Shown here: positions 8,124 to 40,506 of the stretch, piece after piece
How the letters are laid out: every line of letters begins with the position of its first letter
Numbering within the stretch: the stretch's first letter is position 1
Source: Naegleria gruberi
Lineage: Eukaryota
DNA length: 64,000 nucleotides
NCBI GenBank assembly: GCA_000004985.1
Contig: GG738849.1
Strand: one strand, 5' to 3'
The notes under the pieces: model-generated
What the model saw: the letters and a program-made list of their open reading frames with translations, nothing else
Databases searched by the model: none
What the model was told of the DNA's origin: nothing
Translations under genes and position numbers: made by a program

Positions 8124-8256
8124 TTTATGTTTTACACTCTATATTTTGTATTATTAAGATCAATGATAATCGAGTTGATTAAAATTCGAAAGAAGAAATT
8201 TTATTAAGAAATTATAAAAATTAATTGGCGCCAAAATATTTATAACTACAAAAAAA

Positions 8257-9102
8257 ATGACTGATTTATTATCAACCCTCAATTCCGACACTGTTCTCTA
8301 CAAGACCATGAAGACAACAACAACAACAACAAACAATATGGATGAGACAATTTTGGAGGAGAAGGAAAGAGTGTATGGATATTTGAAGGGAACCAATGAT
8401 GCTCATTATGTTTTGGAGAAGAAAAAGATAGTGATTGGAAAAGATCCCGATAAATGTGATATTGTATTACATAATGGAAAGACTATATCGCCTGAACATG
8501 CCAGGATTGAATTTAGAAAGACTGCAACTTCATACACTTGTATGATTACTGATTTACAGTCACAGAATGGTACATTGGTGAATGATAAACGATTGTTTTT
8601 GGATAGTGTCACAAAACAGTTACATCATGGAGATAGAATTCGATTTGGATTTGATCAGACATTTTATACGATTGAGTTTCTTTATGAGGAGGAACAACCA
8701 AACAAAAATTCAACAGATGAGAGAGGATTTGTTGGAATACTCAATCCAAATTTCAAACCAGGAAAATCTAGGAGAAGTAAATCAGCTGAAAAGTCTCTAT
8801 CAAGGCCTAAAGCTGAACCTTCTAAAGAATACAAAGAAAAATTGGAAAAGCAACAACAGGAATTCAAAAGCTTACTTGAAAAGAGGAGGAGCGAAAAAAA
8901 GAGGGCGGAAAAAGATCCAAAAGATCCTTCCACAATAACCTTTCAAACAGCAACAGGATCAAAAACTGTCTCTCTAAATGATCTTCAGGAAAGTGATGAG
9001 GAAGGTATTGAGGATGATTTTATTCCACAAGAAACAATTAAGGAAACCATATCAATAGCAAAACCAACTGTGGACTCCAAGACAAACTCTCCCAAATTAT
9101 GA
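8257..9102 (+). CDS. FHA (forkhead-associated) domain protein with a charged, lysine-rich C-terminal region.
   Basis: The N-terminal FHA signature is IVIGKDPDKCDIVLHNGKTISPEHARIEF...LQSQNGTLVNDKRL...GDRIRFG. It has a true ATG start and is continuous in one frame to the TGA at 9100-9102. Confidence 0.8.
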   Translation: MTDLLSTLNSDTVLYKTMKTTTTTTNNMDETILEEKERVYGYLKGTNDAHYVLEKKKIVIGKDPDKCDIVLHNGKTISPEHARIEFRKTATSYTCMITDLQSQNGTLVNDKRLFLDSVTKQLHHGDRIRFGFDQTFYTIEFLYEEEQPNKNSTDERGFVGILNPNFKPGKSRRSKSAEKSLSRPKAEPSKEYKEKLEKQQQEFKSLLEKRRSEKKRAEKDPKDPSTITFQTATGSKTVSLNDLQESDEEGIEDDFIPQETIKETISIAKPTVDSKTNSPKL

Positions 9103-9235
9103 TATTCTTTCATCTCGAATTGAGAATATTGAAAAAACTATTTATACAGAACAAAAGAATGAGGAACAGGAATTTTATCATTTAAATCTATTGGTAAACA
9201 GCGTACATTTATTGTCTTACAAGTTGTTAAACGAG

Positions 9236-10549
9236 ATGGGACATCAGGATAAAACTAGTAGCGACGCCCATGACGAAGATGACACTCTAGGCCAAAGCAA
9301 AACAGTGAGGGAAATAATGACTGAAAAATTGAAGGATGTGAAAGGAATTCTGACAGCTTGTATTGGGAGAGTGAATGTTGTCGATAGAGAAAAGGAACGA
9401 ACAATGAAAGAAAAGGAAAATTTAAGAAGCCAAGCTTTGGAAAGATACGCAACAGAATTACAAGTAGAGCTGGATACAATACGATTCGAGTTTGAGAGAA
9501 AGAATATGTTGGTGGAAGAGTTAAAACGACAATCCCTCGACAGGAAAAAGGATCAAGATACGATCAAGACTCTTAGGGAGTGTTTAGAATTCAAAGATGC
9601 TGAAATGAGAGAATTGCAAAGTCAACTAGCTTCTAATTCCTTGATTGGATATAACAGTGAGGCTGCTAAATCGAGAATGCAAAATTTGATAGCTACATTA
9701 ATGAAAGACACGGAAGAATGCAAGAGAAGAAATATGGAATCACAACATAGGCTCGAAAAGAGACTGCTCGAATGGCAACAAGTGAAGGAAGAAAACAAAA
9801 AGCTAAGATTTAGAGTTTCTGACCTTCAAGAAACAATTCACAGACAAATGAACGATCTTCACATCTCTTTAATGCATAAAGAGCAAAAATTGAATGCTTG
9901 GAAGTCTAAAGTCGCAGAGTTGGCTTCTGATAATAACGAAATGCGATATAGAGCTGCGGGCTTTTTACTTTCTCTAGTGAGTGAACAAGATAATAGAGAT
10001 ACAGAACTATTATTGAAATATGAGGAAACTAAGAGAAATCTACACTTTTCTCAAATGGAAAATAACGAGCTTCGATTGGAAATTCAAAATTTGAAAGATG
10101 TCCTCCAATACACAGATGTACATACAACCAAACAAACAATGGACATGTTAAGAGATAAGATACACCAAATGGAAATTGAATGCTCAGTAGATAGAGTTCT
10201 GGAATACCAGAACACCATAACCAATCTAAGTTCCAAAGTTTCAGAATACGAGAGAATGCAAGGTCTCTATATCCAAGAATTTAGTAGATTGAAAAAGTTG
10301 AATACTAAATTCAATGAGGGAGCATGTATTGGAACATTGGAACGTAAAATTCAACTCTACGAAAAGAAGATTGAGAGTTTGGAAAAACACATTGACCAAG
10401 CTTTTGTGGAAAGAGAGTCTGCCATTTCACCAATTCTGCCCTCCTCACAGATGCAATTGTTGAACCCTTCAAATCCATTAAGTGCTATTCAACGAGTTGA
10501 GCTGAAAGAAACTACTCCAAATATCATACCAAAACCTCTTTCTTCCTAG
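9236..10549 (+). CDS. Coiled-coil protein of about 438 aa. The start is taken at the first in-frame ATG and the true 5' end is uncertain.
   Basis: Long heptad-rich ORF in frame 2 that is open from 9059. The ORF-track start at 9191 is a TTG. The first ATG is at 9236 (MGHQDK...). The ORF ends with a Pro/Ser-rich tail at 10547-10549. Whether it is an independent gene or a 3' part of the upstream FHA gene is unresolved. Confidence 0.6.
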   Translation: MGHQDKTSSDAHDEDDTLGQSKTVREIMTEKLKDVKGILTACIGRVNVVDREKERTMKEKENLRSQALERYATELQVELDTIRFEFERKNMLVEELKRQSLDRKKDQDTIKTLRECLEFKDAEMRELQSQLASNSLIGYNSEAAKSRMQNLIATLMKDTEECKRRNMESQHRLEKRLLEWQQVKEENKKLRFRVSDLQETIHRQMNDLHISLMHKEQKLNAWKSKVAELASDNNEMRYRAAGFLLSLVSEQDNRDTELLLKYEETKRNLHFSQMENNELRLEIQNLKDVLQYTDVHTTKQTMDMLRDKIHQMEIECSVDRVLEYQNTITNLSSKVSEYERMQGLYIQEFSRLKKLNTKFNEGACIGTLERKIQLYEKKIESLEKHIDQAFVERESAISPILPSSQMQLLNPSNPLSAIQRVELKETTPNIIPKPLSS

Positions 10550-10728
10550 AAGGTCATCAAAAGGTGACTTGAGAGCTGTCATTGAACAAACCCAACAGAG
10601 TGAAATAGCTCAACAAGAAACAAAAGAAACATTACCAGTATTGGAAAAGAAACCATCCAAAACGAATATAATTCCAGTTGAGGAAGTAAATAATAGTATA
10701 ATTACAGATCAATAAATAAAATATTTAA

Positions 10729-15402: not shown

Positions 15403-18400
15403 ATGTTGTCAACACCAAGTAGCCAAGACAAGATGGTCGATGAAGTTGCAGCTGATCAACAACCAGAAGTCGATGAAAAGTTATACAGCAGACAATTATA
15501 CGTGTTGGGTATTGATGCCATGAAGAGAATGCAACAATCGAATGTTTTGATTTGCGGACTCGGAGGTTTGGGTGTAGAAGTTGCCAAGAATGTTATTCTT
15601 ACAGGTGTTAAGAGTGTTACTTTGCACGATACAAAGAATATTACATTGGAAGATCTCTCTGCTCAATTCTATGCATCTGAAAAGGATGTTGGTCTCAACA
15701 GAGCAGAAGTTTCCCTCTCACAACTTAAAGAATTGAATCCATACGTTCCTGTAAAGATTCATCAAGGAGAATTGAACGAAGAGTTTATTACACAATTCTC
15801 TGTTGTTGTTTTCACAGATTCTCACATTCCACAACTCTCAGAGTTGAGTGATGTCTGCCACAAGCATAATATTAAATTTATTGCTTCCGAGAGTAGAGGT
15901 TTGATGGGATCAATCTTTTGCGATTTTGGAACAGATTTTACAGTCTATGATAATGATGGTGAAAATCCAGTATCAAACATTGTTACAGATATTACAAACG
16001 GAAATCCAGCCACAGTTACAGTCTATGATGATAAACCAAGCCACCAATTGTATGATGATGATTATGTTCAATTCGAAGGTATTGAAGGAATGACAGAAAT
16101 TAACAATACTGAACCAGTCAAGGTTCAAGTTTCTGGTAAACATACTTTCAAGATTCATCTCGATACCACTAAATTCAGTGAATACAAGTCTGGATCTGGT
16201 GGTTATGTGAGACAAGTTAAGGTTCCAACAAAGCATTCTTATCAACCATTGAAAGATCAATTGGTTAACCCAACTTGTATTGATTTTGATTATGCCAAGC
16301 TTGGTAGACCTCAAAGCATTCACGTTGCCATGATAGCTCTCAGCGAATTTGAAAAGAGAAATCAACATCTTCCAAAGCCATACAACAAGGCTGATGCTGA
16401 AAGATTATTGGAAATTGCTAAAGAAATTGTTCCAGAAGCTCTCAAGACATCTTTGGATGAAAATGTTGTCAAGATGTTGTCTTACACTTGTAGAGGTAAT
16501 TTGAATCCAATGGCAGCATTTTTGGGAGGTATTGTTGCTCAAGAAGTCCAAAAGGCTTGCAGTGGTAAATTCACACCATTGAACCAATATTTACATTTTG
16601 ATTCTTTGGAAAGTTTGGGAGAAGATGAAAGCAAATATCCAACTGAAGAAGATTGTCAATTCACTTCAACCAGATACGATGGTCAAATTGTTGTTTTCGG
16701 TAAACAATTCCAAGAAAAATTGTCAAATGTTAAGGAATTCATTGTTGGTGCTGGTGCCCTTGGTTGCGAATATCTTAAGAACTATGCCATGATGGGTGTT
16801 GGTTGTGGAAATAACGGAAAGATGTTTGTTACTGACATGGACAGTATTGAAGTTTCCAATTTGAATAGACAATTCTTGTTCAGAAGAAAGCATGTTGGTT
16901 CACAAAAGTCTACAACAGCTGCTGAAGTTGTCAAGGGAATGAATCCTGCATTCAACATTGTTGCTTTGCAAGATAAGGTTGCTCCTGAAACTGAACAAAC
17001 ATTCGATGATGAATTCTGGGAACAATTAACAGGTGTCACTAATGCTTTGGACAATGTTCAAGCAAGACTCTATGTAGATTCTAGATGTGTATATTATTCT
17101 AAGCCTTTGATTGAATCTGGTACTTTGGGTGCTAAGGGTAACACTCAAATTGTTGTTCCAAAGTTGACTGAATCATATGGTTCAACTAGAGATCCACCAG
17201 AAAAGGAAATCCCAATCTGTACTCTTAAGAACTTCCCTAATGCCATTGAACACACCATCCAATGGGCCAGAGATTCATTCGAAGGTTTGTTCAACAAGGT
17301 TCCAAATGAAGTTAACACTTACCTCTCAAAGACTGACTATTTGAAGGAACTTGATAGTGAAAATTCAAGGAAGATGATTTTGGAAAATATTTTCGAATCA
17401 CTCGTCAGCAACAAGCCAATCACTTTTGAAAATTGTGTTGAATGGGCTAGAATCAAGTTTGAACAATTGTTCAACAATAATATTCAACAATTGTTGTACA
17501 ATTTCCCAATTGGTATGATCACTTCATCTGGTACCGAATTCTGGGGAGGTGCTAAACGTCCACCAACTCCATTGACTTTCGATCCTAAGGATCAAGCTCA
17601 TTTGGACTTTGTCATTGCTGCCTCTAACCTCAGAGCTTTCATGTATGGATTGAAGGGATTCACCAAGGAAGAATACGATTTTGCCTCAGTTGTTTCAAAG
17701 ATTGTTGTTCCTGAATTTTCTCCAAAGAGTGGTGTCAAGATTCAAAGTGACGAAAAGGAAAATAAGGAACCAGAACAAGAATTAACTGAATCAGACGAAC
17801 AAGAAATTAAAGTTTTGACCTCCAAGATTCCAAAGCCTTCAGAATTAGCTGGATTCCGTTTGAATGTTAGTGACTTTGAAAAGGATGATGATTCTAACTA
17901 TCACATTGATTTCATTACTGCTACCAGTAACTTGCGTGCCAGAAACTATAAGATTCCAGAAGCTGATAGACACAAGACTAAGGGTATTGCCGGTAAGATT
18001 ATTCCTGCCATGGTTACTACTACTGCTCTCGTTACTGGTCTTGCTTGTTTGGAATTCTACAAGGTATGTTTACTTTTGAAATTTTACATTTTTTTACCCT
18101 TTAATTACACACCTATACTTTTTGTTGGTGTTGCTCTTGTTTGAGTCACCGGGCTATCAGAACAGCTTGATAATAGAGAATATAATTGTCAATGCTCACT
18201 CATATAGCCTATATTAACCAATGGTGACAATATAACAGAGCGCATCAATGAAAGTACTGGACCATTTATGTGCTTACATATATTGTTAAATTTCAAATTT
18301 TGATTTAAACATACAATAGCTCATGCAAGGTGCTGAAAAGATTGCCACTTACAAGAATGGTTTCGTCAATATTGCTTTGCCTTTCATGACCTTGTCTGAA

Positions 18401-29054: not shown

Positions 29055-31637
29055 TTATTGTAAATTTAAAACCATTCTCTTCTTATCTGCCTTCTTTCTT
29101 CTATCGTGATTAGCACTTTTGGCCTTGTTTTCTCCTTTTTGTTTGAAGTTATTGTTGTTTCCGCCACGTTGTTGTTCATTTGGTGAGGAAGTAGTATCAC
29201 TGTTGTTATCTTGACTAGTTGTAGCACTGTTGGTAACAACCTTGTTAGTGGCAGTAGCAGTTGGTTGTTTGCTTACTTGCTTCGAGGCATCATTTGAACC
29301 TTGGTTGGATGTATCTGCAGATTGTTGTTTGGATTGTTGATGAGTGCTCACTTGATGATAGCCTCCACCTCTCTTTCCTCTATTAGCTGTTGATCCTCCT
29401 CTGTTGTTATTGTTGTTTTGATTTCTTTGAGGTTTGGAATTGGATTCGATACCAGCAGCGTTAGCATTATTTGAGGAGGATTGAGAAGTATTTGGAGTTG
29501 AGGCAGATTGATTATTGTTGTTTGATTGTTGTTGGTGATGTTTGTTTCTATTTGGATTACCTTGTTGCTTATTGCCTTGTTGCTGCTTATTCTCTTGTTG
29601 TTGCTGTTGTTGTTGAGGAGGCTTATTCTCTATTGTTTGTGGCTTTTCTTCACCATGGTGGTGTTGATGATTTGGATTACTATTGTAAGCCTTTGGAACC
29701 TTAATCTTGTTAAAGTTTTCGTCTTCATGTTCACCTTCAGTTGTGACAGCCATCACACTATCATATGAATCATCATATTCATCATCGTAGGCATATTCGA
29801 GGAGAATACGTTGCTTGATAGTTTCGTCTGTTTCATTAAAGTTGGTTCTATTGTCCTTCTTTTTACCAATTCTGACCGATGCGAAAAAGTCAGTATCCAT
29901 CCAGACAGTTGGTGAAACAATTGGTGAGGCAGGTTCGTAAGAGGATGATGATGATCCACTTGTTGAGCCAGTATTGAGAAGAGATGAAGGTGGCTTACTT
30001 CCAGTATTTGTTGGAGCCTTATAGGATTTGAGTGACAATTTGTTGTCCATCTTCTTCAAGTGCAATGGCAATTGATTATCCATGAGGGCATTTGTAGTGT
30101 TGGTAATATCATTATTGAAATGATCGAGACATGCTTGTAAGAATCCATTTCCATAATCTGGGAAGAATGATTTGAGTTGTTTGAGCATTTCTGTTAGAGC
30201 TGGTTCATCTTCACTGTTGGTTGATCCCTCTGTTTGAGCATTTTCAGATAATTTAGTGAAAATAGTTGTTGAAATATTATAGACAGAAGAGACACTACTC
30301 AGTAAAGCATTTCCCAAAATAACTTGTTCTAACCACTTTCCTAAACCATATAACTTGTCATATTGATAGATTACATAGTTGAATTTAGTTTGATCCTTAG
30401 CTTGGAATTTGAAAAATCCTTGTAAAATGTCCAATAATTCCAAAACAATTCCTGTTGCTTGTCTTGTAAGTTGCTTGTCAAGAGTAAATTTACACAAGAG
30501 TTCGAGTTTAGATTTTGGAATTTGTTCCTTCTTGAATGATGATTCAAAATATCTAGTGTACAATGTTTCCATATGACTTGTTGTTGATCTATTTGAATGA
30601 GTTTCTCCAGTAATTAAATCTTCAATATTTCTCATATAGTATTCTCTAAACAAAACATGAAGAATAGAAACAATATTAAGTTTGACTTGTCTGCATACAA
30701 ATCTATAATCAGGGTCATCACCAATAATACTCAAAAGTTGGGGTATAATCTTATCGTGACATTCCATCAAAAGATTAGGGAATTGATAATTGACAGGAGT
30801 TTTGGTTTCTCTAGTGTCAACCATGAAAGCATAGGACGCCAGTGGGAAAACATCAAGGAGGGATCTTATGGTAAATGTAGAATCGTATAAATAGTAAATT
30901 AACTTTCTAATTTGATGACAATCAGATTTTGAGTTTGAAGTCACCTTGTTTGAGGCATCAAACAAATCTCTCCACGTAACACAAATACTATTCAAAACAT
31001 GTTCATTGAGTTCGTGCATATAATTTGGTGAAGAGAGGAAAATTCTGGAAAGTAACTCGGTGGTAAGCATTGAATTAGGATATCCATAAAGTGAAGAGAG
31101 ATCAAATATTTTACCAACATCTAGTAAATGCTTTTCACAAATGACAAACCCAGCATCTAACCATTCTTCACGATTTACATTATTCAAGTCTGTTGGATGT
31201 GAAATGTCAATATTTCCCTTTCCATGTAAATTAAAGTTCATAAATAATCTATAGTAAATCATGAAGAGACGTCTATATATTTTGATTTCCTCACGTTGTT
31301 CATTCCTTGGACAATTTTCATTGATTTGATTAAATCCAATATCAAAAGGTCTCGGAAACAATCTAAATACACTTTCTAAGCTTCTCTTGAGAGAGGTATC
31401 ATTCAACATGAGCACCCAAAAATCATGATCATTACAAGTTAACAATTTATGATAATCTCTATTCAAAATTTTTAAACATTCAATTCTAGTTATTCTCTTA
31501 TCAGATGCCAACAATGGATTTAAACGATCCATGAACGGAATCATTTCCAATCCTTGTCCCTTTCCTAAAGAATAATAATTCTCTAGCCTAGTATGTAATT
31601 GAGTAAAGGATTGAACATCAATGGGAGTATTGTTCAT
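29055..31637 (-). CDS. ascc2: Activating signal cointegrator 1 complex subunit 2 (ASCC2)-like protein with a CUE domain and a poly-Q/N C-terminal region.
   Basis: CUE domain LTEMLKQLKSFFPDYGNGFLQACLDHFNNDITNTTNALMDNQLP. The acidic Tyr/Asp motif YAYDDEYDDSYDSV and the C-terminal basic tail ANHDRRKKADKKRMV both match human ASCC2 landmarks in the same order. True ATG at 31635-31637 (MNNTPID); the track start is a TTG. The poly-Q tract is at about 29575-29640. Confidence 0.8.
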   Translation of the reverse strand: MNNTPIDVQSFTQLHTRLENYYSLGKGQGLEMIPFMDRLNPLLASDKRITRIECLKILNRDYHKLLTCNDHDFWVLMLNDTSLKRSLESVFRLFPRPFDIGFNQINENCPRNEQREEIKIYRRLFMIYYRLFMNFNLHGKGNIDISHPTDLNNVNREEWLDAGFVICEKHLLDVGKIFDLSSLYGYPNSMLTTELLSRIFLSSPNYMHELNEHVLNSICVTWRDLFDASNKVTSNSKSDCHQIRKLIYYLYDSTFTIRSLLDVFPLASYAFMVDTRETKTPVNYQFPNLLMECHDKIIPQLLSIIGDDPDYRFVCRQVKLNIVSILHVLFREYYMRNIEDLITGETHSNRSTTSHMETLYTRYFESSFKKEQIPKSKLELLCKFTLDKQLTRQATGIVLELLDILQGFFKFQAKDQTKFNYVIYQYDKLYGLGKWLEQVILGNALLSSVSSVYNISTTIFTKLSENAQTEGSTNSEDEPALTEMLKQLKSFFPDYGNGFLQACLDHFNNDITNTTNALMDNQLPLHLKKMDNKLSLKSYKAPTNTGSKPPSSLLNTGSTSGSSSSSYEPASPIVSPTVWMDTDFFASVRIGKKKDNRTNFNETDETIKQRILLEYAYDDEYDDSYDSVMAVTTEGEHEDENFNKIKVPKAYNSNPNHQHHHGEEKPQTIENKPPQQQQQQQENKQQQGNKQQGNPNRNKHHQQQSNNNNQSASTPNTSQSSSNNANAAGIESNSKPQRNQNNNNNRGGSTANRGKRGGGYHQVSTHQQSKQQSADTSNQGSNDASKQVSKQPTATATNKVVTNSATTSQDNNSDTTSSPNEQQRGGNNNNFKQKGENKAKSANHDRRKKADKKRMVLNLQ

Positions 31638-32403
31638 TTTGTGTGTGATGATGAATTTTTTCAAATTTTTTGTTTTATTTTTAAAAATATTAAATAATCA
31701 AATTGCTGATGGTGATGAGCAAAAACTTCAAGGCAACAATTTCGGGAATGAACTCAAGTACGATATTGAACAGAATAATTGTTTCCTTGATGGTGTGAAG
31801 AAAAAGATAATGTTTAATTTGAGACTAATTTTGAAATGTTTAGCAACCTACAATATAATCCTAAATTCTATTTAATAATCTGTAGTGAGAGAACAATTGT
31901 AAAGATTGAGTTTCCATGGAAACAAATTTCAAGAACAATCATCAGCTGATGAATGAGATTGGAATTTCTCCTCATATACGGAAACAAAAAGGAAAACTTT
32001 TACCATCATGTATGGTCATTTCCCAATACTTATTATTATCCAAGTTACCCACCAACGAACAACACCTACGACACTATCTTGTTACAAAATAGAAACCACT
32101 TCCTCTCCAACACGACTATTTTCAATTCCTTAATATCCTTTTCATCAACATTCTCTGTGAGGAAAGTCCACGCATATGGAACACCTCTCTTATTGGAAAG
32201 TATTCAAAATGAAATTGAGTTAAATTTCATGAAGTATGAAGGTAACCCGATCGTGATTGTTTAGATAGTGCTTCCTCCTCTAGTACCCTATCAAGTCACA
32301 AATCAACATACAAATGTTGTAGTCTGTGGGATTCTCTTTTCAAAAAAAAGTAACAATCATTATCGTTGTCTAGTTGACTTGAATTGTTATTAGTTGATAC
32401 AAA

Positions 32404-34632
32404 ATGTTTAGAAAGGGATTTCTGTTACTGCTAATTCTTTCACTGTTGGTGATAGCTGGTTTTTACACACAGTCAACTGTGGCGACTCTAGTTAACTCAA
32501 ATACTTATCCAAGTGCAAATGTAATTTCTACGAGTGATGGGTTTAAAATGTATTGGAGATTATTGGCAGGAAATGGCACCAATTCCATTATTGAAATTGC
32601 AATCATTGCTACTGGATGTGCCAGTGGATGGGTTGGTTTAGGAATAGATCACGACGTTTCGAGTGGTATGTCAAATGTTGATACAGTGATGGCAAGGTTT
32701 GTACGAAATATTTCACATTATTTATAATTTGATGATGAAACTTTTATTATCCGTATGATGATGATGTTTAGATATACTGGATCAATTGATATCAAAGATA
32801 TGTACTTGGCTACAAATTCACGATCAGCTCCTATTCAAGATACTATTGACAATTTGATTTTCAAAGATGGTGGAGTGAGTGGAAGTGATCTTCATGTGAT
32901 TTTCAGAAGATACTTGAATACTGGAGATAGTTCAAGAGACAAAATTATTAGAAACGAAACTATGAGGTTCAGTTATGCCTACTCTTTATCTTCCAATGAT
33001 TTCCAATCATATCACGATAAGACTGGAAAGTTCACGACCAATTTGCTCTTGATTGCTACAAATTCATCAAGTGGAGGCACCACAACAGGCACTACAAATA
33101 ATCTCTATAATTTCCATCTGATTGTTACGGGAATCATGTTTGTGATTGTACTTTCATTGGGCATTGTCTTTACATTTATTCCAGTTTTGGTTAAACCAAA
33201 TCTACTGACAGATTTGATTTTATATAGAAGATTTTGCAAAGTTTCGACAAACAAATACTTGGGAGGAATGATTAATTCATTGGCTGACTTGACCATTGGA
33301 GAAGTTTTAATCGTGTCATCATATTGGCTCATTCTAGCTGCTTGGGCAGTTTATGGAGGTATTTCGGCAAGCTCATTCCCAGCTGGAAGAGCTTTTGCTT
33401 ATGTGAATGTTTGGAATTTTAGTTTGATACTATTCCCTTTGAGTAGATATTCAGTTTTACTTGCCCTGTTCGGTATTTCATTTGAGAGAGCTATCAAATT
33501 CCACAAATGGTTGGGAAGATCAACTCACTTCTTTGTTACTGTTCACTTCCTTGCCATGTTGATTGAAAATGCAATGATCAATAATGCTGCCTATTTGTGG
33601 TCAATGTCAACAATTAATTATCCTCTCTTGGGTTTTATTTCTTGGATTTTATTGAGTATTCTAGTGATGGGAACTTTTGAGCCAATTAGAAGAAAGTTGT
33701 GGGAACTTTTCTATGGTTCACATATTATTCTTGCTGTTCTAGTGATTGGATTATCCATTGCACACGGTAGAGGATGGATTACATTACTCCCTTATATGGC
33801 TGCAAGTATTCTCTTGTATTTGATTGATTTGCTATTCAGATGGGTATTTGGCTTTGGAATTCCAACAAAGGTTGTTGGTATTAGTTATAATGAGGATTGT
33901 AGTGTAACAACCGTTACTTTCCAGAAGAGATTTTTGACCTTCCTTAATATTGGAGGAAAACCTGGAAAGGGTTCATTTATTTTTGTTTATTTGCCTTCAG
34001 TTTCTCCTTTCGAATATCATCCATTTACTGTGAGTAGTTACAAGGAATTGGATAAGAAGGGAACCTATGAATTTACATGCCATGTCAAGAATCATCATGG
34101 TAAGGGTTATGGAAACAAGTTGGCCAATCTTGCCAAATCCAATCCAGATGTTAGTCGTCTATTTGCCAGAGTTGAGGGAGCATTTGGAAATCTCTCCATT
34201 CCTATTCAACATTATCAAACCGTCATCTTAATTAGTGGTGGTATTGGTATTACATTTGTTCATTCACTCCTCGATGGTCTAGTTCAGAGAGGAGAAGACA
34301 AGTCAAAGAAGATTCACTTGTGGTGGTCATTCAGACATCCCTCAATGTTGGATTTATTCCCAACGATTAAGAATAATTCATCTATCGAAAAGGAACTTTT
34401 CCTCACTGGAAAGGACACTGAGATGGGTTCTCATTCTCACAGTGACATTAAAATGTCAAGAATGGACGTTAAACAATTACTGGAAAAGGTGAAGAGTAAT
34501 ACCAATGATTCCTATGTTGGAGTATTCGTCTGTGGACCAACTCAATTAATTTCCACTGTACAAAATGCAATTTTCGATGTGAATGGTGGAGGTACTAGAT
34601 TCCATCTCCACAAGGAAGTATTTGAATTTTAA
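32404..34632 (+). CDS. Signal peptide + DOMON domain + ferric-reductase (FRE/NOX-type) transmembrane domain + FAD/NADPH-binding domain. Two exons: 32404..32696, 32772..34632. The junction is approximate.
   Basis: Signal peptide FLLLLILSLLVIAGFYT. A DOMON-like beta-sandwich is split by the intron (…SNVDTVMA|R|YTGSIDIKDMYLATNSRSAP…). Two His pairs with 13-residue spacing sit in TM helices (HIILAVLVIGLSIAH and HKWLGRSTHFFVTVH), i.e. a bis-heme site. The FAD motif is HPFTVSS and the NADPH motif is GGIGITFVHSLL. The donor is GTTTGT at 32697, the acceptor TTTAG at 32770-32771. Confidence 0.8.
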
Positions 34633-34735
34633 TAAATTCATGAAATATTCTACTAAAACTCCCTCAATCAGAAATATATTAACAAACAGCCATTCAGAGC
34701 TATAGCTCTCTTCAATATTTTCCAACCTTAAAAAA

Positions 34736-35675
34736 ATGAAACTCTATGATCTACCAACGGAATTGTTGCAAGAAATTTTCAGTTTTCTCTTTAATTTGAG
34801 GGAGAGCAAGAAGACTCTCTATAATTCGCTTATTGAGGCAAGACAGTCGCTTCAACAAATTTGTCAAATGCAACAAGTTTGTACTACTTTTCGATCATCG
34901 GAGGAAATTATTGAATTATTTAATGATTTAATGTGGAGTTTATTCTGCAAGAGTTTTCCCTCTGCACTGATCGAAAATCTAGTCGAATTGTGTGGTGATG
35001 AATTTGAGGAGGAAATTCTAGAGCCAATTCGGAAGAAACATTTGATGAGGAAATACATTACTGGATTGATGAGAAAAATTGGAAAATTATCTTCATCAAG
35101 CGATAATTTAAAAGTATTATTTCTTGGTAAATATTAAATTATATAATATTTCAATTTTTATTAAAAATTTGGAAATTTATTTAGGAAATGGAAAGACAAC
35201 TTTATTGAAAAAGCTATCAGGTGGCAGATTTAAATCAATTGTAGGGTCCATTAAGAAAAAGATTAATCAAATTGGAAACGTTTCATTTGTATGCATGGAA
35301 CCAACTAATGAGACAACTTGTTTCCGTCTCATTTCCACCATGGAAAATAGATTTGATTGTTTTGTGATTGTAAATTATCCAGTGGATAATCGTGTGGGTA
35401 GTAATATAGTGCTACAATATCCTATGGATTTTAAAGATATTTCTGTATCAGTTGACTTTCCAATAGTTATTGTAATGAAGAATTGTTTTGTTTTGGGAGT
35501 GAGAAGTTTATTTTCTGATTTCAAGAATGTATCAATTATTGTAACTGAAGATGATGAAAGTGAGTTTTCAACAGGTAAAATTTTAGAGGAGGTTTATTTC
35601 AGAACATTCAAAACTAAACAGAATTTGCTGGATATTCTAATAGAGGAGGCAAAAAGTTTACAAAAATATGATTGA
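34736..35675 (+). CDS. F-box protein fused to a P-loop NTPase-like domain. Two exons: 34736..35126, 35185..35675.
   Basis: N-terminal F-box LPTELLQEIFSFLFNL. A 58-nt intron GTAAAT...TATTTAG follows. The Walker-A-like motif VLFLGNGKTTLLKKLSGG spans the junction. A hydrophobic-D segment DCFVIVNY is Walker-B-like. Other G-motifs are not recognisable. Confidence 0.55.
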
Positions 35676-35997: not shown

Positions 35998-38900
35998 TTA
36001 GTAATTTCTATTTGCAATCATTTGTTTGAGAATTTCCTTCTTGCTCAAATTGGTCGTTGGCTTTAACCAAGACATGTTATCATAATTTTTCTTCAAAAAG
36101 CTTGACAAGACACTTCTACTTGGGAATAAATCTTTCAAATACATAATGGAAGCAATTTCGTATGGAGTAAGACCAAAGGCATTAATTGCATTAACATCAG
36201 CTCCATACTTTGTGACCAAAAGTTTGGCAAGTCCAATATTTGATGGATCCAAACAGGCAAGATGTAATGGAGTCATTAAACGGAGTGTTGGAATATTGAT
36301 AAGCTTTGGTTGTTTGTCGAGAACTGCTGTTATGATTTCTGTAGGTATACCAGTACGTTGGCTGGCCAAAATTGTGAGGCAAGTATATCCATTATCATCT
36401 CTGTACAAGAGATCTTCAGGTGACATATTTTCAATCAAGGTAAGGACGAATGGAACTGATCTCACCATGCTTGCCATCAATAAATTCAAAATGCTTGTCT
36501 CAATAATTCTTGGAGATTCAAATAACATAGCCTTTTGATCAAGTTCAAATGCTGGAACAGTTTGATTTAAATCAGAGATTTGACCATTGTAAATCATTTG
36601 AACGAGAGTAGCTTGTCTATTAAATTTGACTTCATCAGTAGAATCCAAAAAGTTGCAATAAGTTTTGGAGAAATCTTCTGAATATGGATCAGGGGTAGAT
36701 TTGGCGGATTGCATGTAAGTGATTCCTCCAAATACTTCTCTGAACTTTCCTAAACAAGTACACAAAGTTACAAGATTATCGATCAGTCTGATATCATCAT
36801 AGCTTGAAGTTAACATGGCAATAAGCTTGTCGGTAGTGATTTGAACCTTTTGCTTTTCATAATCAGGATGTGACTTTGGTTTAGTAAAGTATCTAAAGAA
36901 GACTTGCAAGGCTCTAACTTTTTGATCTGTAGAAAGCTCTTCTGTGCAGTTTGAGTCAGCTTCCACTTTCTTCAAGGTTTCTTCCAAATTATCAAGGCCT
37001 TGGAAATCTGAAATTTGAGACAGACTCTGTGCTAATAGTTCAATTGATCCATTTTCATAGAATAATTTGGCCATATAAAGATCTAAAAGGATGGTCTTGT
37101 CAAGATAGTATCCATTGATCTTACTACATTTACCAACCATGACTGAGAACATGAACTCTTCAAAGACGTGAGGATTCTTGAAGATATTCATACCAAAGTA
37201 TAACAAGACGTGACACCAGTGGAAGCTACCATCATAAATGATAGAATCTGGGTGGAGAAGGCTTTCTTCAGACTTGTTGTTATGATAGATGAGATATTCT
37301 TCAATAACTCTCTTTTCTTCTATGTGTTCGTAGTTGTAGGTATCTATAGCAGAATAAGGAATTTTGGATTTGATGCAATAATCAATAATTTCCTTCTTCT
37401 TAATGATGGATAATCCAGGGGATTGGGTCAATAATTGATTGATCAATGGTAGGAATTCTAATCTTTGTTCAGTCATTGCAGTTATTGGTCCTATCAAGTC
37501 CTTGTCAAGTTGGGCAACAAGAATGGCTCTGATAACCAATCTCTTTTCGTCTTCTCTATCGAGCATTGGACGAACAGTTAGAGCACCAGTAATATCGGCA
37601 GGGGTTTCTTGATTATCATCGTCATTATTTGTAAAGCCATCTTTTAAAGTATCTACTACCTTTTGAGGTTTACCTTCAAATAAGAAATAGAACTTGTCAT
37701 AAAACTTCTTCAAAACATCCTTGGCTGACTCAATATCAGCTGTTGTACTGGTATAAACGTTGGTCATCTGGGTATTGGAATCTGAATTTTCTCTTGTTTT
37801 TCCCAAAAAACTGATTTCCTTCATATTTGGGAAGAGTGTAGCAAGATATCCAATTTCAGTACCAAGAGAATATACATAATCACCATATGGGGCTAACTTG
37901 ACCTTTTTAACATTGTTAGCAAAGCAGGATCTGAGGAGATTCTTACTAACACTATCAAATTCTTGCAACTCTTCGAAATCGAAATATGATTTAATGGCCA
38001 AAGGATCCTTTGAAAGCCCATCAAGTTTTCCAGCATTAGGATAGAAGGATCTATCATTTGAGAAAACAAATGAAAGATTATCGAGTACAAAGTTAACAAA
38101 GGTAATCTCCTCAATATGACTACCACATACAGTACCTTTAACCAAGCTAGGATCAACAATCTTTGGAATTGTCTTACCATTCTCCAACAAGATATGTAAC
38201 AATATATTGTTCAAGAAGTTATAACTTTGGAAATTGATTAAGCTGATGGACTTGAATAACTTGTAAGTTTCCTCATGCCATTCACTGAACAGATCAGGAA
38301 GGGCTTTCCTAAGGGACAAACGAACCAAAGCGCAAAGATAAGTTTCGTATGTGTAAACAGGAGAGTATGCTAGAGTGTGAGGAGTCAAAATAAACTCGTG
38401 ATTCATTCTTGGAATACCCTCTGGGAAGTATTTTTTGTAAAGTTCAGATGGTTCCATATTGTCAAAGTTATCATTCAACAAATCCAACCCAATTTCTGTA
38501 GTGTCAACTGTTAATGGTAGTTTAGATTATGATAGCGACTTAAAATACTTACGTTCTAGAACTATATCGGCTCCTTTTGGACGTTTTTTGATCTTGTCCT
38601 TCTTGCTTGATTGGGTGACCAGACGTGAAAAGTTGGAAATCATATAATTATTATTCATAGTTTGTTGATTGAGTTCATCAACTAAATCTGCTTCAGTAGT
38701 TTCTTCATCTTGTGCTTCTTCATCTTGACTTTCTTTTTTGTCAACTTGAAGGAAAGTATCCTCTTCTACATCAACTTCAAGCGTTTCTTCTTTTTCTAAC
38801 TTTTCGTCAGTTTTAGCTTCCTTCTTGGTTTCTTCATCAACTTCAATATCTAAATCATCCACGTTATTGTTATAATAATTGAGTCTATAGGATGGAATAG

Positions 38901-40048
38901 AACCTCCAATGGTAAAAGTTCCAGTTTCGGTATCTGTTTTCAAAAGGAACATTTCACTCCAATTGGATTTCAAGCATCCATAAACCTTTGGGCAATTTTT
39001 GTAGATGCCTTCATCTTCAAAGTGATCCAACTTTTTGGAGTGGTACCTCTTTTTAGCATTGATAAAACAGAGCAAGTGAGCATATTTTGACAAGAAGAGG
39101 TCAATATTATTTTCTGGTTCAAATGCATTAGTTCTTGGTGAATAGAAACGAATGAAAATGGAAGCAATATTCAAAGAATCGCATTCATTCATTAAATATT
39201 CTTGCATTCTTGTGTTAAATGTCTTTGAAATTGCACGATACTTGTGATATGTTACAAATACTGAATCAATGGTTTCAGTACAAAAGTTATTTGGAGTATT
39301 GGAAAAATACTTTTTAAACTGGAATATGGTACTAGATTCTCTTTCGAATGGAAGTTTGCTAGATGTTGGAATCATGGTAATAATATGGAATTTCAACTCG
39401 AAATCAAAATGTTCTCTAATAAGTTCACATAATTCTTCCAATTTCTCAGATGACTCATCAGCGCTTTTTTCAACAATAGTTTTTTCTATTAATTCAATTA
39501 TTAATCATTGTAGTTCATAAAGAGATAACAAACCTTCACTCTTCTTTCTATCTGCATCAGTCCAGATCTTACTCAAAGGTGTCATTTTCTCACCTTCAGC
39601 AGCTTCAAAATCAACAGAGGATGAATAAACCTTCGGATCAAGATTCTACAACCATCATCAGTTGTGTGATATTAAATTTGATCAAAATTATTACAAAATC
39701 ACAAGGAAAAACAAACCTCAACTTTTGGAAATTTAGCCATTCCATTATTCCAATAGGCTTGGGCATAATTAGTATATTTTGATTTATCCTTGTGATATTG
39801 TGGAATTGTTTCTATATTATGATCATTTAATAATATTCATATATTAACAACATAATAACATGATCGGATGGAATGATAGGAATCACACATTAATATGTTC
39901 ATATATAATAATCTTCATTAGCAATCTAACAACACATTCAAAAAAACAAACCTTTGATCGGGGTTAAAATAGCCTCTCCCACACGATCATGAATCATCTC
40001 CAACAAATTACTAGCACTGGTAATATCCAACCCGAAAGGACCGTTCAT
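35998..40048 (-). CDS. Large ankyrin-repeat-containing protein (about 1230 aa). Five exons: 39952..40048, 39717..39811, 39534..39645, 38553..39485, 35998..38507.
   Basis: The two long track ORFs (38527..39441 and 35998..38487, both listed from TTG) join in frame through a 45-nt intron GTAAGT...TAACAG. Three further 5' exons join with exact phase through introns that have GTTTGT donors and TAG acceptors. The apparent upstream stop TAG at 39646-39648 is the acceptor of intron B. ATG at 40046-40048 (MNGPFGLDITSASNLLEM...). The C-terminal ankyrin repeats are GYTCLTILASQ... and LMTPLHLACLDPSNIGLAKLLVTKYGADVNAINAFGLTPYEIA. Confidence 0.7.
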
Positions 40049-40389: not shown

Positions 40390-40506
40390 CAAATTTCTCA
40401 TCAATTTTCCAACAAAAATTCAACTCTCATTAAGACAGCAGTTCATTGATGGTCAATAATTGAGATAGGATTTGTGTAAAGTTGGGTCTATTGGATGGCT
40501 CTTGGT
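40390..40506 (-). repeat. Copy B of the 117-bp duplicated segment, in its native context at the 3' end of the receptor-kinase gene.
   Basis: See copy A. This copy covers the final 24 codons (WDQEPSNRPNFTQILSQLLTINELLS*) plus about 40 bp of 3' flank. Confidence 0.8.

What the first reader, a model, noticed from the sequence alone, without database searches (positions are those of the whole stretch)
39534..40048. Two intron-donor dialects in one locus: GTAAGT/GTATGT and GTTTGT, all with TAG acceptors. Three GTTTGT introns reveal hidden 5' exons of the ankyrin gene.
Most introns here start GTAAGT, GTATGT or GTAATT. Four, however, start GTTTGT: three in the ankyrin gene (39486..39533, 39646..39716, 39812..39951) and one in the DOMON gene (32697..32771). 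All join flanking exons with exact codon phase and extend ORFs that otherwise begin at non-ATG codons. The in-frame TAG at 39646-39648 that seems to close the ORF is actually the acceptor of intron B. GTTTGT...TAG is the canonical intron signature reported for Entamoeba, whereas GTAAGT dominates in Dictyostelium. Finding both in one compact locus is unusual and is a trap for ab-initio gene callers trained on GTAAGT only.
Basis: partly seen in the sequence, partly recalled or inferred. Interest (0 to 1): 0.5.

Follow-up and report, generated by a model that had tools for sequence, protein, structure and literature searches.

The report
Real GTTTGT introns in Naegleria genes
Four short introns that begin AG|GTTTGT instead of the usual GTAAGT are real in this Naegleria gruberi locus, look like ordinary spliceosomal introns rather than a second splicing "dialect", and matter mainly because the public annotation mishandles the two genes that carry them.

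Summary
On the minus strand, three introns (39951-39812, 39716-39646, 39533-39486) read AG|GTTTGT...TAG. Removing them joins three small 5' exons to the large ORF of a 1248-aa ankyrin-repeat gene. A fourth such intron (32697-32771, plus strand) joins exon 1 of a DOMON/ferric-reductase gene.

Homology supports every junction. The spliced 101-aa N-terminus aligns without gaps to a N. gruberi paralogue (E=1e-20) and to the N. lovaniensis orthologue (E=5e-29). The DOMON junction aligns without gaps to five homologues.

The window is Naegleria gruberi NEG-M (seven exact RefSeq protein matches), not an amoebozoan.

In my 18-intron table GTTTGT is the second commonest donor (4; GTAAGT 6). I do not think it is a separate system. 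All four donors follow an exonic AG. Predicted pairing to a canonical U1 5' end (-6.0 to -7.4 kcal/mol) falls inside the range of the other donors. Orthologous introns in relatives carry GTAAGT, GTATGT or GTACGT.

The "gene-caller trap" remark fits what I found. The RefSeq DOMON model starts at an ATG inside the intron and lacks exon 1, and no public protein model was found for the ankyrin gene.

This is ordinary biology with a useful annotation consequence.

The parts
39952..40048 (-). Ankyrin-family gene, exon 1 (ATG at 40048; 97 nt; MNGPFGLDITSASNLLEMIHDRVGEAILTPIK + 1 nt)
   Evidence: Hits N. lovaniensis P0001 aa 1-24 on its own, E=2.7e-9. Lies inside the ungapped alignment to the N. gruberi paralogue P0148.
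39812..39951 (-). Intron C, 140 nt, phase 1, AAAG|GTTTGTTT...ATATAG
   Evidence: Sequence. Same codon position and phase as N. lovaniensis intron 1, which starts GTAAGT, if ETIPQ is aligned to IVTPQ without a gap.
39717..39811 (-). Exon 2 (95 nt; ETIPQYHKDKSKYTNYAQAYWNNGMAKFPKVE)
   Evidence: E=9e-9 against P0001 aa 50-78 and E=2e-9 against N. fowleri P0002.
39646..39716 (-). Intron B, 71 nt, phase 0, TGAG|GTTTGTTT...GTTGTAG. Its TAG is the apparent in-frame stop at 39648-39646.
   Evidence: Sequence. Within one codon of N. lovaniensis intron 2 (GTATGT), same phase.
39534..39645 (-). Exon 3 (112 nt; NLDPKVYSSSVDFEAAEGEKMTPLSKIWTDADRKKSE + 1 nt)
   Evidence: E=6e-11 against P0001 aa 85-113 and E=1.5e-10 against P0002.
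39486..39533 (-). Intron A, 48 nt, phase 1, TGAAG|GTTTGTTA...TTAATAG. If retained it gives an in-frame TGA.
   Evidence: Sequence. No intron at this place in N. lovaniensis. The junction lies at the very end of the ungapped alignment to P0148, query aa 101 of 101.
38553..39485 (-). Exon 4 (933 nt), conserved N-terminal domain (LCELIREHFDFELKFHII...)
38508..38552 (-). Intron 4, 45 nt, GAAC|GTAAGTAT...TTAACAG. It holds the in-frame TAA at 38529-38527. An acceptor 12 nt further down (ACTACAG) is also possible.
   Evidence: The choice between the two acceptors is not resolved by homology.
35998..38507 (-). Exon 5 with the stop codon. Ankyrin repeats lie near the C-terminus.
   Evidence: Pfam Ank_5, Ank and Ank_2 hits. 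35% identity to P0001 over 100% of the query.
32404..32696 (+). DOMON/ferric-reductase gene, exon 1 (signal peptide and first half of the DOMON domain). Missing from RefSeq model XP_002681613.1.
32697..32771 (+). DOMON intron, 75 nt, phase 2, GCAAG|GTTTGTAC...GTTTAG. The RefSeq model's start ATG lies at its 3' end.
   Evidence: The junction VMAR|Y is ungapped against five homologues. The Pfam DOMON hit, aa 57-168, spans it. The donor is kept in a 98.6%-identical metagenome strain. There is no intron here in N. lovaniensis, L003 or L004.
32772..34632 (+). DOMON/ferric-reductase gene, exon 2 with the stop codon
17283..17290 (+). Unused AGGTTTGT inside the E1 (UBA1) coding exon. It encodes the conserved FEGLF and shows the octamer alone does not make a donor.
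   Evidence: The N. lovaniensis E1 matches over 100% of the query at nearly the same length.

Best explanation
These are four ordinary major-spliceosome (U2-type) GT-AG introns of Naegleria gruberi whose 5' splice sites carry U at +3 and +4 (AG|GUUUGU).

Shown: they must be removed to give the conserved proteins, and the junctions are exact.

Inferred: a canonical U1 5' end recognises them as it does every other intron in the locus. The two central mismatches are offset by pairing of the exonic A(-2) and G(-1) together with G+1, U+2, G+5 and U+6. The UGU at +4 to +6 also pairs with the ACA of the U6 ACAGA box, as in GUAUGU donors.

The short, AT-rich intron body (21-27% GC) and a nearby branch-like motif plus YAG probably supply the remaining specificity. 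An identical AGGTTTGT inside the E1 exon is not used.

GTTTGT is therefore one end of a degenerate (AG)|GTWWGT donor spectrum, not a second splicing system.
For: 1. Exons and junctions.
- The spliced N-terminal 101 aa match N. lovaniensis P0001 aa 1-113, E=5e-29.
- Each exon hits alone and in the right order: E=3e-9, 9e-9, 6e-11.
- The alignment to the N. gruberi paralogue P0148 is ungapped over 98 residues and crosses the junctions of introns C and B; the intron A junction sits at its end. E=1e-20.
- The DOMON junction is ungapped against five homologues and lies inside a Pfam DOMON hit.

2. One recognition system.
- Exonic AG precedes 4 of 4 GTTTGT donors, 2 of 2 GTAATT, 1 of 1 GTAAGA and 2 of 3 GTATGT, but only 1 of 6 GTAAGT. 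Non-GTAAGT 9/12 against GTAAGT 1/6, Fisher p=0.04.
- RNAduplex energy with AUACUUACCUG is -6.0 to -7.4 kcal/mol for the GTTTGT donors and -5.1 to -12.1 for the other 14.

3. The hexamer drifts at orthologous positions.
- Intron C corresponds to GTAAGT and intron B to GTATGT in N. lovaniensis.
- RPAP3-like intron 1 is AAG|GTAATT here, AAG|GTACGT in N. lovaniensis and AAG|GTTTGT in the annotated Willaertia magna gene.

4. Seven of the other introns in my table reproduce RefSeq N. gruberi proteins exactly, so the table is sound.

5. From the literature: (A/C)AG|GU(A/G)AGU is the sequence complementary to U1 (PMC3488318). GUAUGU lineages keep an unmodified U1, and GUUUGU improves U6 pairing (Roy and Bowser preprint).
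Against: - No RNA evidence was available, so splicing itself is inferred from homology.
- The N. gruberi U1 snRNA was not seen. None lies in the window or in 97 kb of related loci. The canonical 5' end is therefore assumed.
- The sample is 18 introns from one 44-kb locus, and three of the four GTTTGT donors sit in one gene.
- Three of the four are GTTTGTT, which is the extended Entamoeba motif.
- All four carry nTGAT near the 3' end, against 2 of 14 other introns (p=0.005, post hoc). That could hint at a subclass.
- The exonic AG could reflect proto-splice-site insertion rather than compensation.
Confidence: 0.8

Rival explanations
1. There is a true second dialect. N. gruberi has a dedicated recognition route for GUUUGU(U) introns, for example a second U1 snRNA variant with ACAAAC like Entamoeba's. 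The genome would then run two donor codes side by side.
For: - GTTTGT is the second commonest donor in the locus, 4 of 18.
- Three of the four read GTTTGTT, as in Entamoeba.
- A hypothetical ACAAAC U1 would pair at -10.2 to -11.6 kcal/mol.
- All four carry nTGAT near the 3' end, unlike most other introns.
- Entamoeba has a co-evolved U1, and Physarum is reported to have both standard and modified U1 variants.
Against: - Every GTTTGT donor has the exonic AG that a fully complementary U1 would not need.
- Pairing to a canonical U1 is already as good as for the nnn|GTAAGT donors.
- The orthologous introns carry GTAAGT or GTATGT in N. lovaniensis.
- The Willaertia GTTTGT intron has no TGAT.
- An AGGTTTGTT in the E1 exon is ignored.
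Confidence: 0.07
2. The exonic AG is a historical footprint, not compensation. GTTTGT introns would be relatively young insertions into AG|GT proto-splice sites that have not yet drifted toward GTAAGT.
For: - The DOMON intron is absent from the orthologues of N. lovaniensis and two other Naegleria-clade species.
- Intron A is absent from N. lovaniensis.
Against: - Introns B and C sit at, or within one codon of, N. lovaniensis intron positions, so they are old.
- The AG association also holds for GTAATT, GTAAGA and GTATGT donors.
- The GTTTGT introns show no sequence similarity that would suggest a common inserted element.
Confidence: 0.1
3. The upstream pieces are not exons. Transcription would start downstream of 39534, and the frame-compatible GTTTGT...TAG pairs would be coincidence or belong to a separate small gene.
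For: No transcript data were available. No public gene model exists for this locus.
Against: - All three pieces are conserved in order in one protein in N. lovaniensis and in a N. gruberi paralogue, and two of them in N. fowleri.
- The start MNGPF is shared with N. lovaniensis.
- Without the exons, the conserved LCELIREHFDFELKFH block has no ATG upstream of it.
Confidence: 0.03

Closest known systems
Entamoeba GUUUGU(U)...UAG introns with a co-evolved U1 snRNA (Roy and Bowser, bioRxiv 10.1101/2022.06.08.495308; E. invadens genome, PMC4053983)
   Same: The donor hexamer is identical. U at +7 is present in 3 of 4. The acceptor is UAG in 4 of 4. The introns are short and AT-rich.
   Different: In Entamoeba 88-90% of introns use GUUUGU, and U1 carries ACAAAC. 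Here the share is 4 of 18, in a heterolobosean, mixed with GTAAGT and GTATGT, and always with an exonic AG. The U1 sequence is unknown.
Canonical U1-complementary 5' splice sites, (A/C)AG|GU(A/G)AGU, where weak intronic positions are offset by exonic positions (PMC3488318 for the consensus; the compensation principle is my own knowledge of metazoan 5' splice-site studies)
   Same: GT-AG ends. The number of positions matching the consensus CAG|GTAAGTAT is about constant across donors at 6-10 of 11. Exonic AG is enriched at donors that deviate from GTAAGT.
   Different: U at both +3 and +4 is rare in most eukaryotes but frequent in this small sample.
GUAUGU-type donors of yeasts, Giardia and Trichomonas, which keep an unmodified U1 (summarised)
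   Same: UGU at +4 to +6, which favours U6 ACAGA pairing. U1 is imperfectly matched yet, by inference, unchanged. GTTTGT differs from GTATGT only at +3.
   Different: Those lineages are intron-poor with near-uniform donors. This locus is heterogeneous.
U12-type (minor spliceosome) introns
   Same: They are a minority class of introns living alongside the major class.
   Different: There is no /RTATCCTT donor and no TCCTTAAC branch site in any of the four introns.

Membership tests
U2-type (major spliceosome) GT-AG intron | GT at the 5' end and AG at the 3' end | tested here: met
   All four read GT...TAG.
U2-type (major spliceosome) GT-AG intron | Removal restores a continuous, conserved reading frame | tested here: met
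   Ungapped alignments across the junctions. Pfam DOMON spans the DOMON junction.
U2-type (major spliceosome) GT-AG intron | 5' splice site complementary to the U1 5' end | tested here: inconclusive
   6-7 of 11 positions match. Duplex energy is -6.0 to -7.4 kcal/mol with an assumed canonical U1, within the range of the other donors.
U2-type (major spliceosome) GT-AG intron | Branch-site-like yUnAy a short distance upstream of the 3' splice site | tested here: met
   CTGAT, ATGAT or TTAAT lie 7-19 nt upstream of the 3' end. Such motifs are common by chance in AT-rich sequence.
U2-type (major spliceosome) GT-AG intron | Spliced junctions observed in RNA | not testable with these tools
   No transcript data are reachable. 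RNA-seq PRJEB23822 exists.
Entamoeba-type GUUUGU system | GUUUGU(U) donor and UAG acceptor | tested here: met
   4 of 4 GTTTGT, 3 of 4 with T at +7, 4 of 4 TAG.
Entamoeba-type GUUUGU system | GUUUGU is the near-universal donor of the genome (about 88-90%) | tested here: not met
   4 of 18 introns in the window. GTAAGT 6, GTATGT 3, GTAATT 2.
Entamoeba-type GUUUGU system | U1 snRNA with ACAAAC in place of ACUUAC | not testable with these tools
   No U1 gene in the window or in the fetched loci.
Entamoeba-type GUUUGU system | Belongs to Archamoebae | tested here: not met
   Seven exact matches to Naegleria gruberi NEG-M RefSeq proteins.
U12-type (minor spliceosome) intron | /RTATCCTT donor and TCCTTAAC branch site | tested here: not met
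   The donors read GTTTGTTT, GTTTGTTA or GTTTGTAC. No TCCTTAAC is present.
Introner-like (transposon-derived) intron family | Sequence similarity among copies beyond the splice signals | tested here: not met
   Local alignments of all 153 intron pairs against shuffles. Among the GTTTGT introns the best is z=3.4 (the TGATGATG run) and the rest are z<=0.2.

The most novel reading that the evidence does not exclude
N. gruberi, and perhaps the whole Naegleria/Willaertia clade, holds a real sub-population of AG|GUUUGU(U) introns with their own branch-site flavour (nUGAU), served by a variant U1 or another dedicated factor. That would be a living intermediate of the splice-signal change seen complete in Entamoeba. 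Gene finders would then miss this class systematically, so a real share of N. gruberi gene models would be truncated or absent.
Probability: 0.07. Interest if true: 0.7.

Novelty: new member of a known kind. Interest (0 to 1): 0.3.

Why it matters
For splicing biology this is a small data point. A free-living heterolobosean tolerates UU at +3/+4 of the donor when the exon ends in AG, and the hexamer changes freely between sister species at the same intron position. That bears on the question of how Entamoeba-type signals could arise, but one locus cannot answer it.

The practical consequence is firmer. In the N. gruberi reference, the DOMON/ferric-reductase model NAEGRDRAFT_46125 lacks its signal peptide and half of its DOMON domain. 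A 1248-aa gene conserved across Naegleria has no protein model that I could find. If GTTTGT donors are as common genome-wide as in this window, a re-annotation guided by RNA-seq would recover more such cases.

Tried and rejected
- U12-type introns: rejected on sequence.
- Introner-like family: no similarity among the four introns.
- snRNA or other RNA genes: the Rfam gathering scan of the window and of 97 kb of related loci found nothing.
- More relatives of the ankyrin gene: a scan of JGI metagenome contigs with an N-terminal alignment found none.
- N. gruberi genomic context: look-ups by protein failed, because N. gruberi proteins are not in the position index. I therefore could not read the reference gene table or sample more N. 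gruberi introns.
- Literature: four searches for Naegleria donor motifs or U1 found nothing specific. The U1 supplement of PMC2396436 is not held. Davis et al. 2007 is not held.
- Alternative donors 6 nt upstream of introns A and B (GTGAAG, GTTGAG): both keep the frame but lack G at +5. For intron B this would also put a 2-aa gap into the alignment to P0148, which is ungapped. For intron A the junction lies at the end of that alignment, so only the weak donor sequence argues against it.
- A wrong early inference: because the homology searches returned no N. gruberi hit, I first thought the organism was an unsequenced Naegleria relative. That was an artefact of clusters represented by short metagenome fragments and of missing or truncated models. 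Exact look-ups corrected it.

Full report
WHAT IS IN THE WINDOW

Only bases 1-44332 are sequence. There is a 50-N gap at 43488-43537, and everything after 44332 is N. GC content is about 33%.

The finding lies on the minus strand. Read that way, an ATG at 40048 opens a 97-nt exon that ends ...ATCAAAG|GTTTGTTT. Two further small exons (39811-39717 and 39645-39534) and the large ORF from 39485 are each separated by a stretch that begins AG|GTTTGT and ends TAG.

Joining the pieces gives one open frame. A fourth intron, 38552-38508 (GTAAGT...CAG, 45 nt), removes an in-frame TAA and links the frame to the 842-codon ORF that carries ankyrin repeats near its C-terminus. The product is 1248 aa.

ARE THE HIDDEN EXONS REAL?

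- The 1248-aa product finds only two relatives in 5.8 billion clustered proteins. They are hypothetical proteins of Naegleria lovaniensis (35% identity, 100% of the query) and N. fowleri.
- The first 101 residues, which are the three small exons, align to the N. lovaniensis N-terminus with E=5e-29. Both start MNGPF.
- Each exon alone hits in the right order: E=2.7e-9, 9e-9 and 6e-11.
- The strongest test is a paralogue in the same genome, NAEGRDRAFT_80685, found by the exhaustive search. It aligns to residues 4-101 without a single gap, E=1e-20. The junctions of introns C and B lie inside that alignment, so a misplaced splice site there would show as a gap. The junction of intron A lies at the alignment's end.
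- I treat the exons and junctions as established short of RNA evidence.

THE DOMON GENE

- Splicing 32697-32771 joins a signal-peptide exon to the long ORF.
- The junction ...DTVMAR|YTGS... aligns without a gap to five homologues.
- It lies inside a Pfam DOMON match, aa 57-168.
- An ENA metagenome contig that is 98.6% identical keeps AAG|GTTTGT and changes only the -3 base of the acceptor.
- The orthologues in N. lovaniensis and in two other Naegleria-clade contigs have no intron at this place.

WHICH ORGANISM?

- Homology pointed to the Naegleria clade. E1 is 81% identical to N. lovaniensis, 74% to Willaertia and 63% to Acrasis. Gene order matches N. lovaniensis and Willaertia.
- Exact look-ups settled it. 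Three single-exon ORFs and four of my spliced models are identical to RefSeq proteins of Naegleria gruberi NEG-M on an 850-kb scaffold.
- The Entamoeba/Dictyostelium framing therefore does not apply. This is a heterolobosean.

DONOR TABLE FOR THE LOCUS

I could place 18 introns.

Support for them is as follows:
- Seven reproduce RefSeq proteins exactly.
- Others are supported by Pfam domains that run across the junction: S53 peptidase, Rab, kinase, RPAP3_C and DOMON.
- The E1 intron is supported by full-length homologues.
- The G19 intron (35127-35184) is the weakest.

| Donor | Count |
|---|---|
| GTAAGT | 6 |
| GTTTGT | 4 |
| GTATGT | 3 |
| GTAATT | 2 |
| GTAAGA | 1 |
| GTAGGT | 1 |
| GTAAAT | 1 |

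Acceptors are TAG in 15 and CAG in 3. AGGTTTGT occurs 7 times against 1.4 expected. Four are the donors, two lie antisense to genes, and one sits in the E1 exon, where it encodes the conserved FEGLF and is not spliced out.

ONE SYSTEM OR TWO?

Three observations favour one system.

First, the exon end. AG precedes all four GTTTGT donors, both GTAATT donors, the GTAAGA donor and two of three GTATGT donors, but only one of six GTAAGT donors. That is 9/12 against 1/6, p=0.04. This pattern is expected if a roughly constant amount of pairing to U1 is needed ((A/C)AG|GURAGU is the U1 complement; PMC3488318).

Second, predicted duplex energies with a canonical U1 5' end. They are -6.0 to -7.4 kcal/mol for the GTTTGT donors. 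That is the same as or better than the nnn|GTAAGT donors (-5.4 to -7.6) and inside the overall range of -5.1 to -12.1.

Third, the hexamer is not stable in evolution.
- Intron C sits at the position and phase of N. lovaniensis intron 1 (GTAAGT).
- Intron B sits within a codon of N. lovaniensis intron 2 (GTATGT).
- The first intron of the RPAP3-like gene is AAG|GTAATT here, AAG|GTACGT in N. lovaniensis and AAG|GTTTGT in the annotated Willaertia magna gene.

About 17 reconstructed N. lovaniensis introns include no GTTTGT, and one of five Willaertia introns is GTTTGT. These numbers are too small for a frequency claim.

GTTTGT differs from GTATGT only at +3 and keeps UGU at +4 to +6, which pairs with the ACA of the U6 ACAGA box (Roy and Bowser).

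WHAT STAYS OPEN

- The N. gruberi U1 was not available.
- In Entamoeba, GUUUGU(U) is used by 88-90% of introns and U1 has changed to ACAAAC. Physarum is reported to have both standard and modified U1 genes. A second U1 in Naegleria is therefore conceivable.
- Three of the four donors here read GTTTGTT.
- All four introns carry nTGAT 7-19 nt from the 3' end, against 2 of 14 other introns (p=0.005, post hoc). However, the Willaertia GTTTGT intron lacks TGAT, and the N. lovaniensis GTAAGT orthologue of intron C has it.
- The four introns share no other similarity, so they are not an introner family.
- I put the two-system reading at about 7%.

ANNOTATION CONSEQUENCE

- The RefSeq protein for the DOMON gene (XP_002681613.1, NAEGRDRAFT_46125, 624 aa) begins MMMFRYTGS. 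Its start codon is one of the ATGs in ...ATGATGATGATGTTTAG| at the 3' end of the intron. The model lacks the 98 residues of exon 1 that homologues from N. lovaniensis, Willaertia and two metagenome species possess.
- For the ankyrin gene, the word-indexed search with the whole protein found no N. gruberi model. An exhaustive phmmer search of the 842-aa ORF against 1.84 billion representatives found nothing above 37% identity.
- By contrast, neighbouring genes with GTAAGT, GTATGT or GTAATT introns are modelled correctly.
I did not test why those models fail.

VERDICT

These are ordinary spliceosomal introns with an uncommon donor variant in N. gruberi. The main value is two corrected gene models and a cheap hypothesis to test with existing RNA-seq (PRJEB23822).

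Noticed in passing
window 18064-18319 (+), with L003 10841-10556 (-): The E1 (UBA1) intron is 256 nt, against about 45-75 nt for most introns here. It is 77% identical to the orthologous intron of another Naegleria-clade species. It folds into two conserved hairpins, the first followed by TATATT (H-box-like) and the second by ACA, with two compensatory pairs. This is probably an intron-hosted H/ACA snoRNA. Rfam has no match even at E<=1.
   Followed up: partly
window 32755-34632 (+): RefSeq N. gruberi model XP_002681613.1 (NAEGRDRAFT_46125, 624 aa) is truncated at its 5' end. It starts at an ATG inside the intron and lacks the signal peptide and half of the DOMON domain.
   Followed up: yes
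window 35998-40048 (-): A 1248-aa gene conserved in N. lovaniensis and N. fowleri, with a N. gruberi paralogue (NAEGRDRAFT_80685), has no protein model in any public collection searched. Its conserved N-terminal domain matches no Pfam family.
   Followed up: yes
window 8218-10712 (+): Three long ORFs (8218-9099, 9059-10546, 10506-10712) overlap in different frames with no plausible GT..AG intron between them. They may be frameshift errors in the assembly, or separate genes.
   Followed up: no
window 39486-39951 (-) and 32697-32771 (+): All four GTTTGT introns carry ATGAT or CTGAT 7-19 nt upstream of the 3' splice site. Most other introns carry TTAAY or CTAAY there (p=0.005, post hoc).
   Followed up: partly
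window 30924-35021, compared with L002: An ENA metagenome assembly (ERZ929261, run ERR1078381, project PRJEB11402) holds a contig 98.6% identical to this N. gruberi region. A very close strain is therefore present in an environmental sample.
   Followed up: partly
window about 10700-34600, compared with L006 and L007: Gene order (CSTF2-like RRM, RPAP3-like, E1, EF-hand, pseudokinase-TBC, TP_methylase ... DOMON) is conserved with N. lovaniensis and partly with Willaertia magna. The pseudokinase-TBC intron is aat|GTAGGT here and aat|GTAAGT in N. lovaniensis at the same codon.
   Followed up: partly
window 43488-43537: A 50-N assembly gap interrupts the long upstream ORF of the receptor-like kinase gene (40430-43487, minus strand). 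A further coding-like ORF at 44091-44330 may belong to the same gene.
   Followed up: no
L007 13953-15209 (+), Willaertia magna: Two of the three introns reconstructed from the annotated F-box/Ras gene end AAG rather than YAG. This was the only solution that matched the annotated product length.
   Followed up: no
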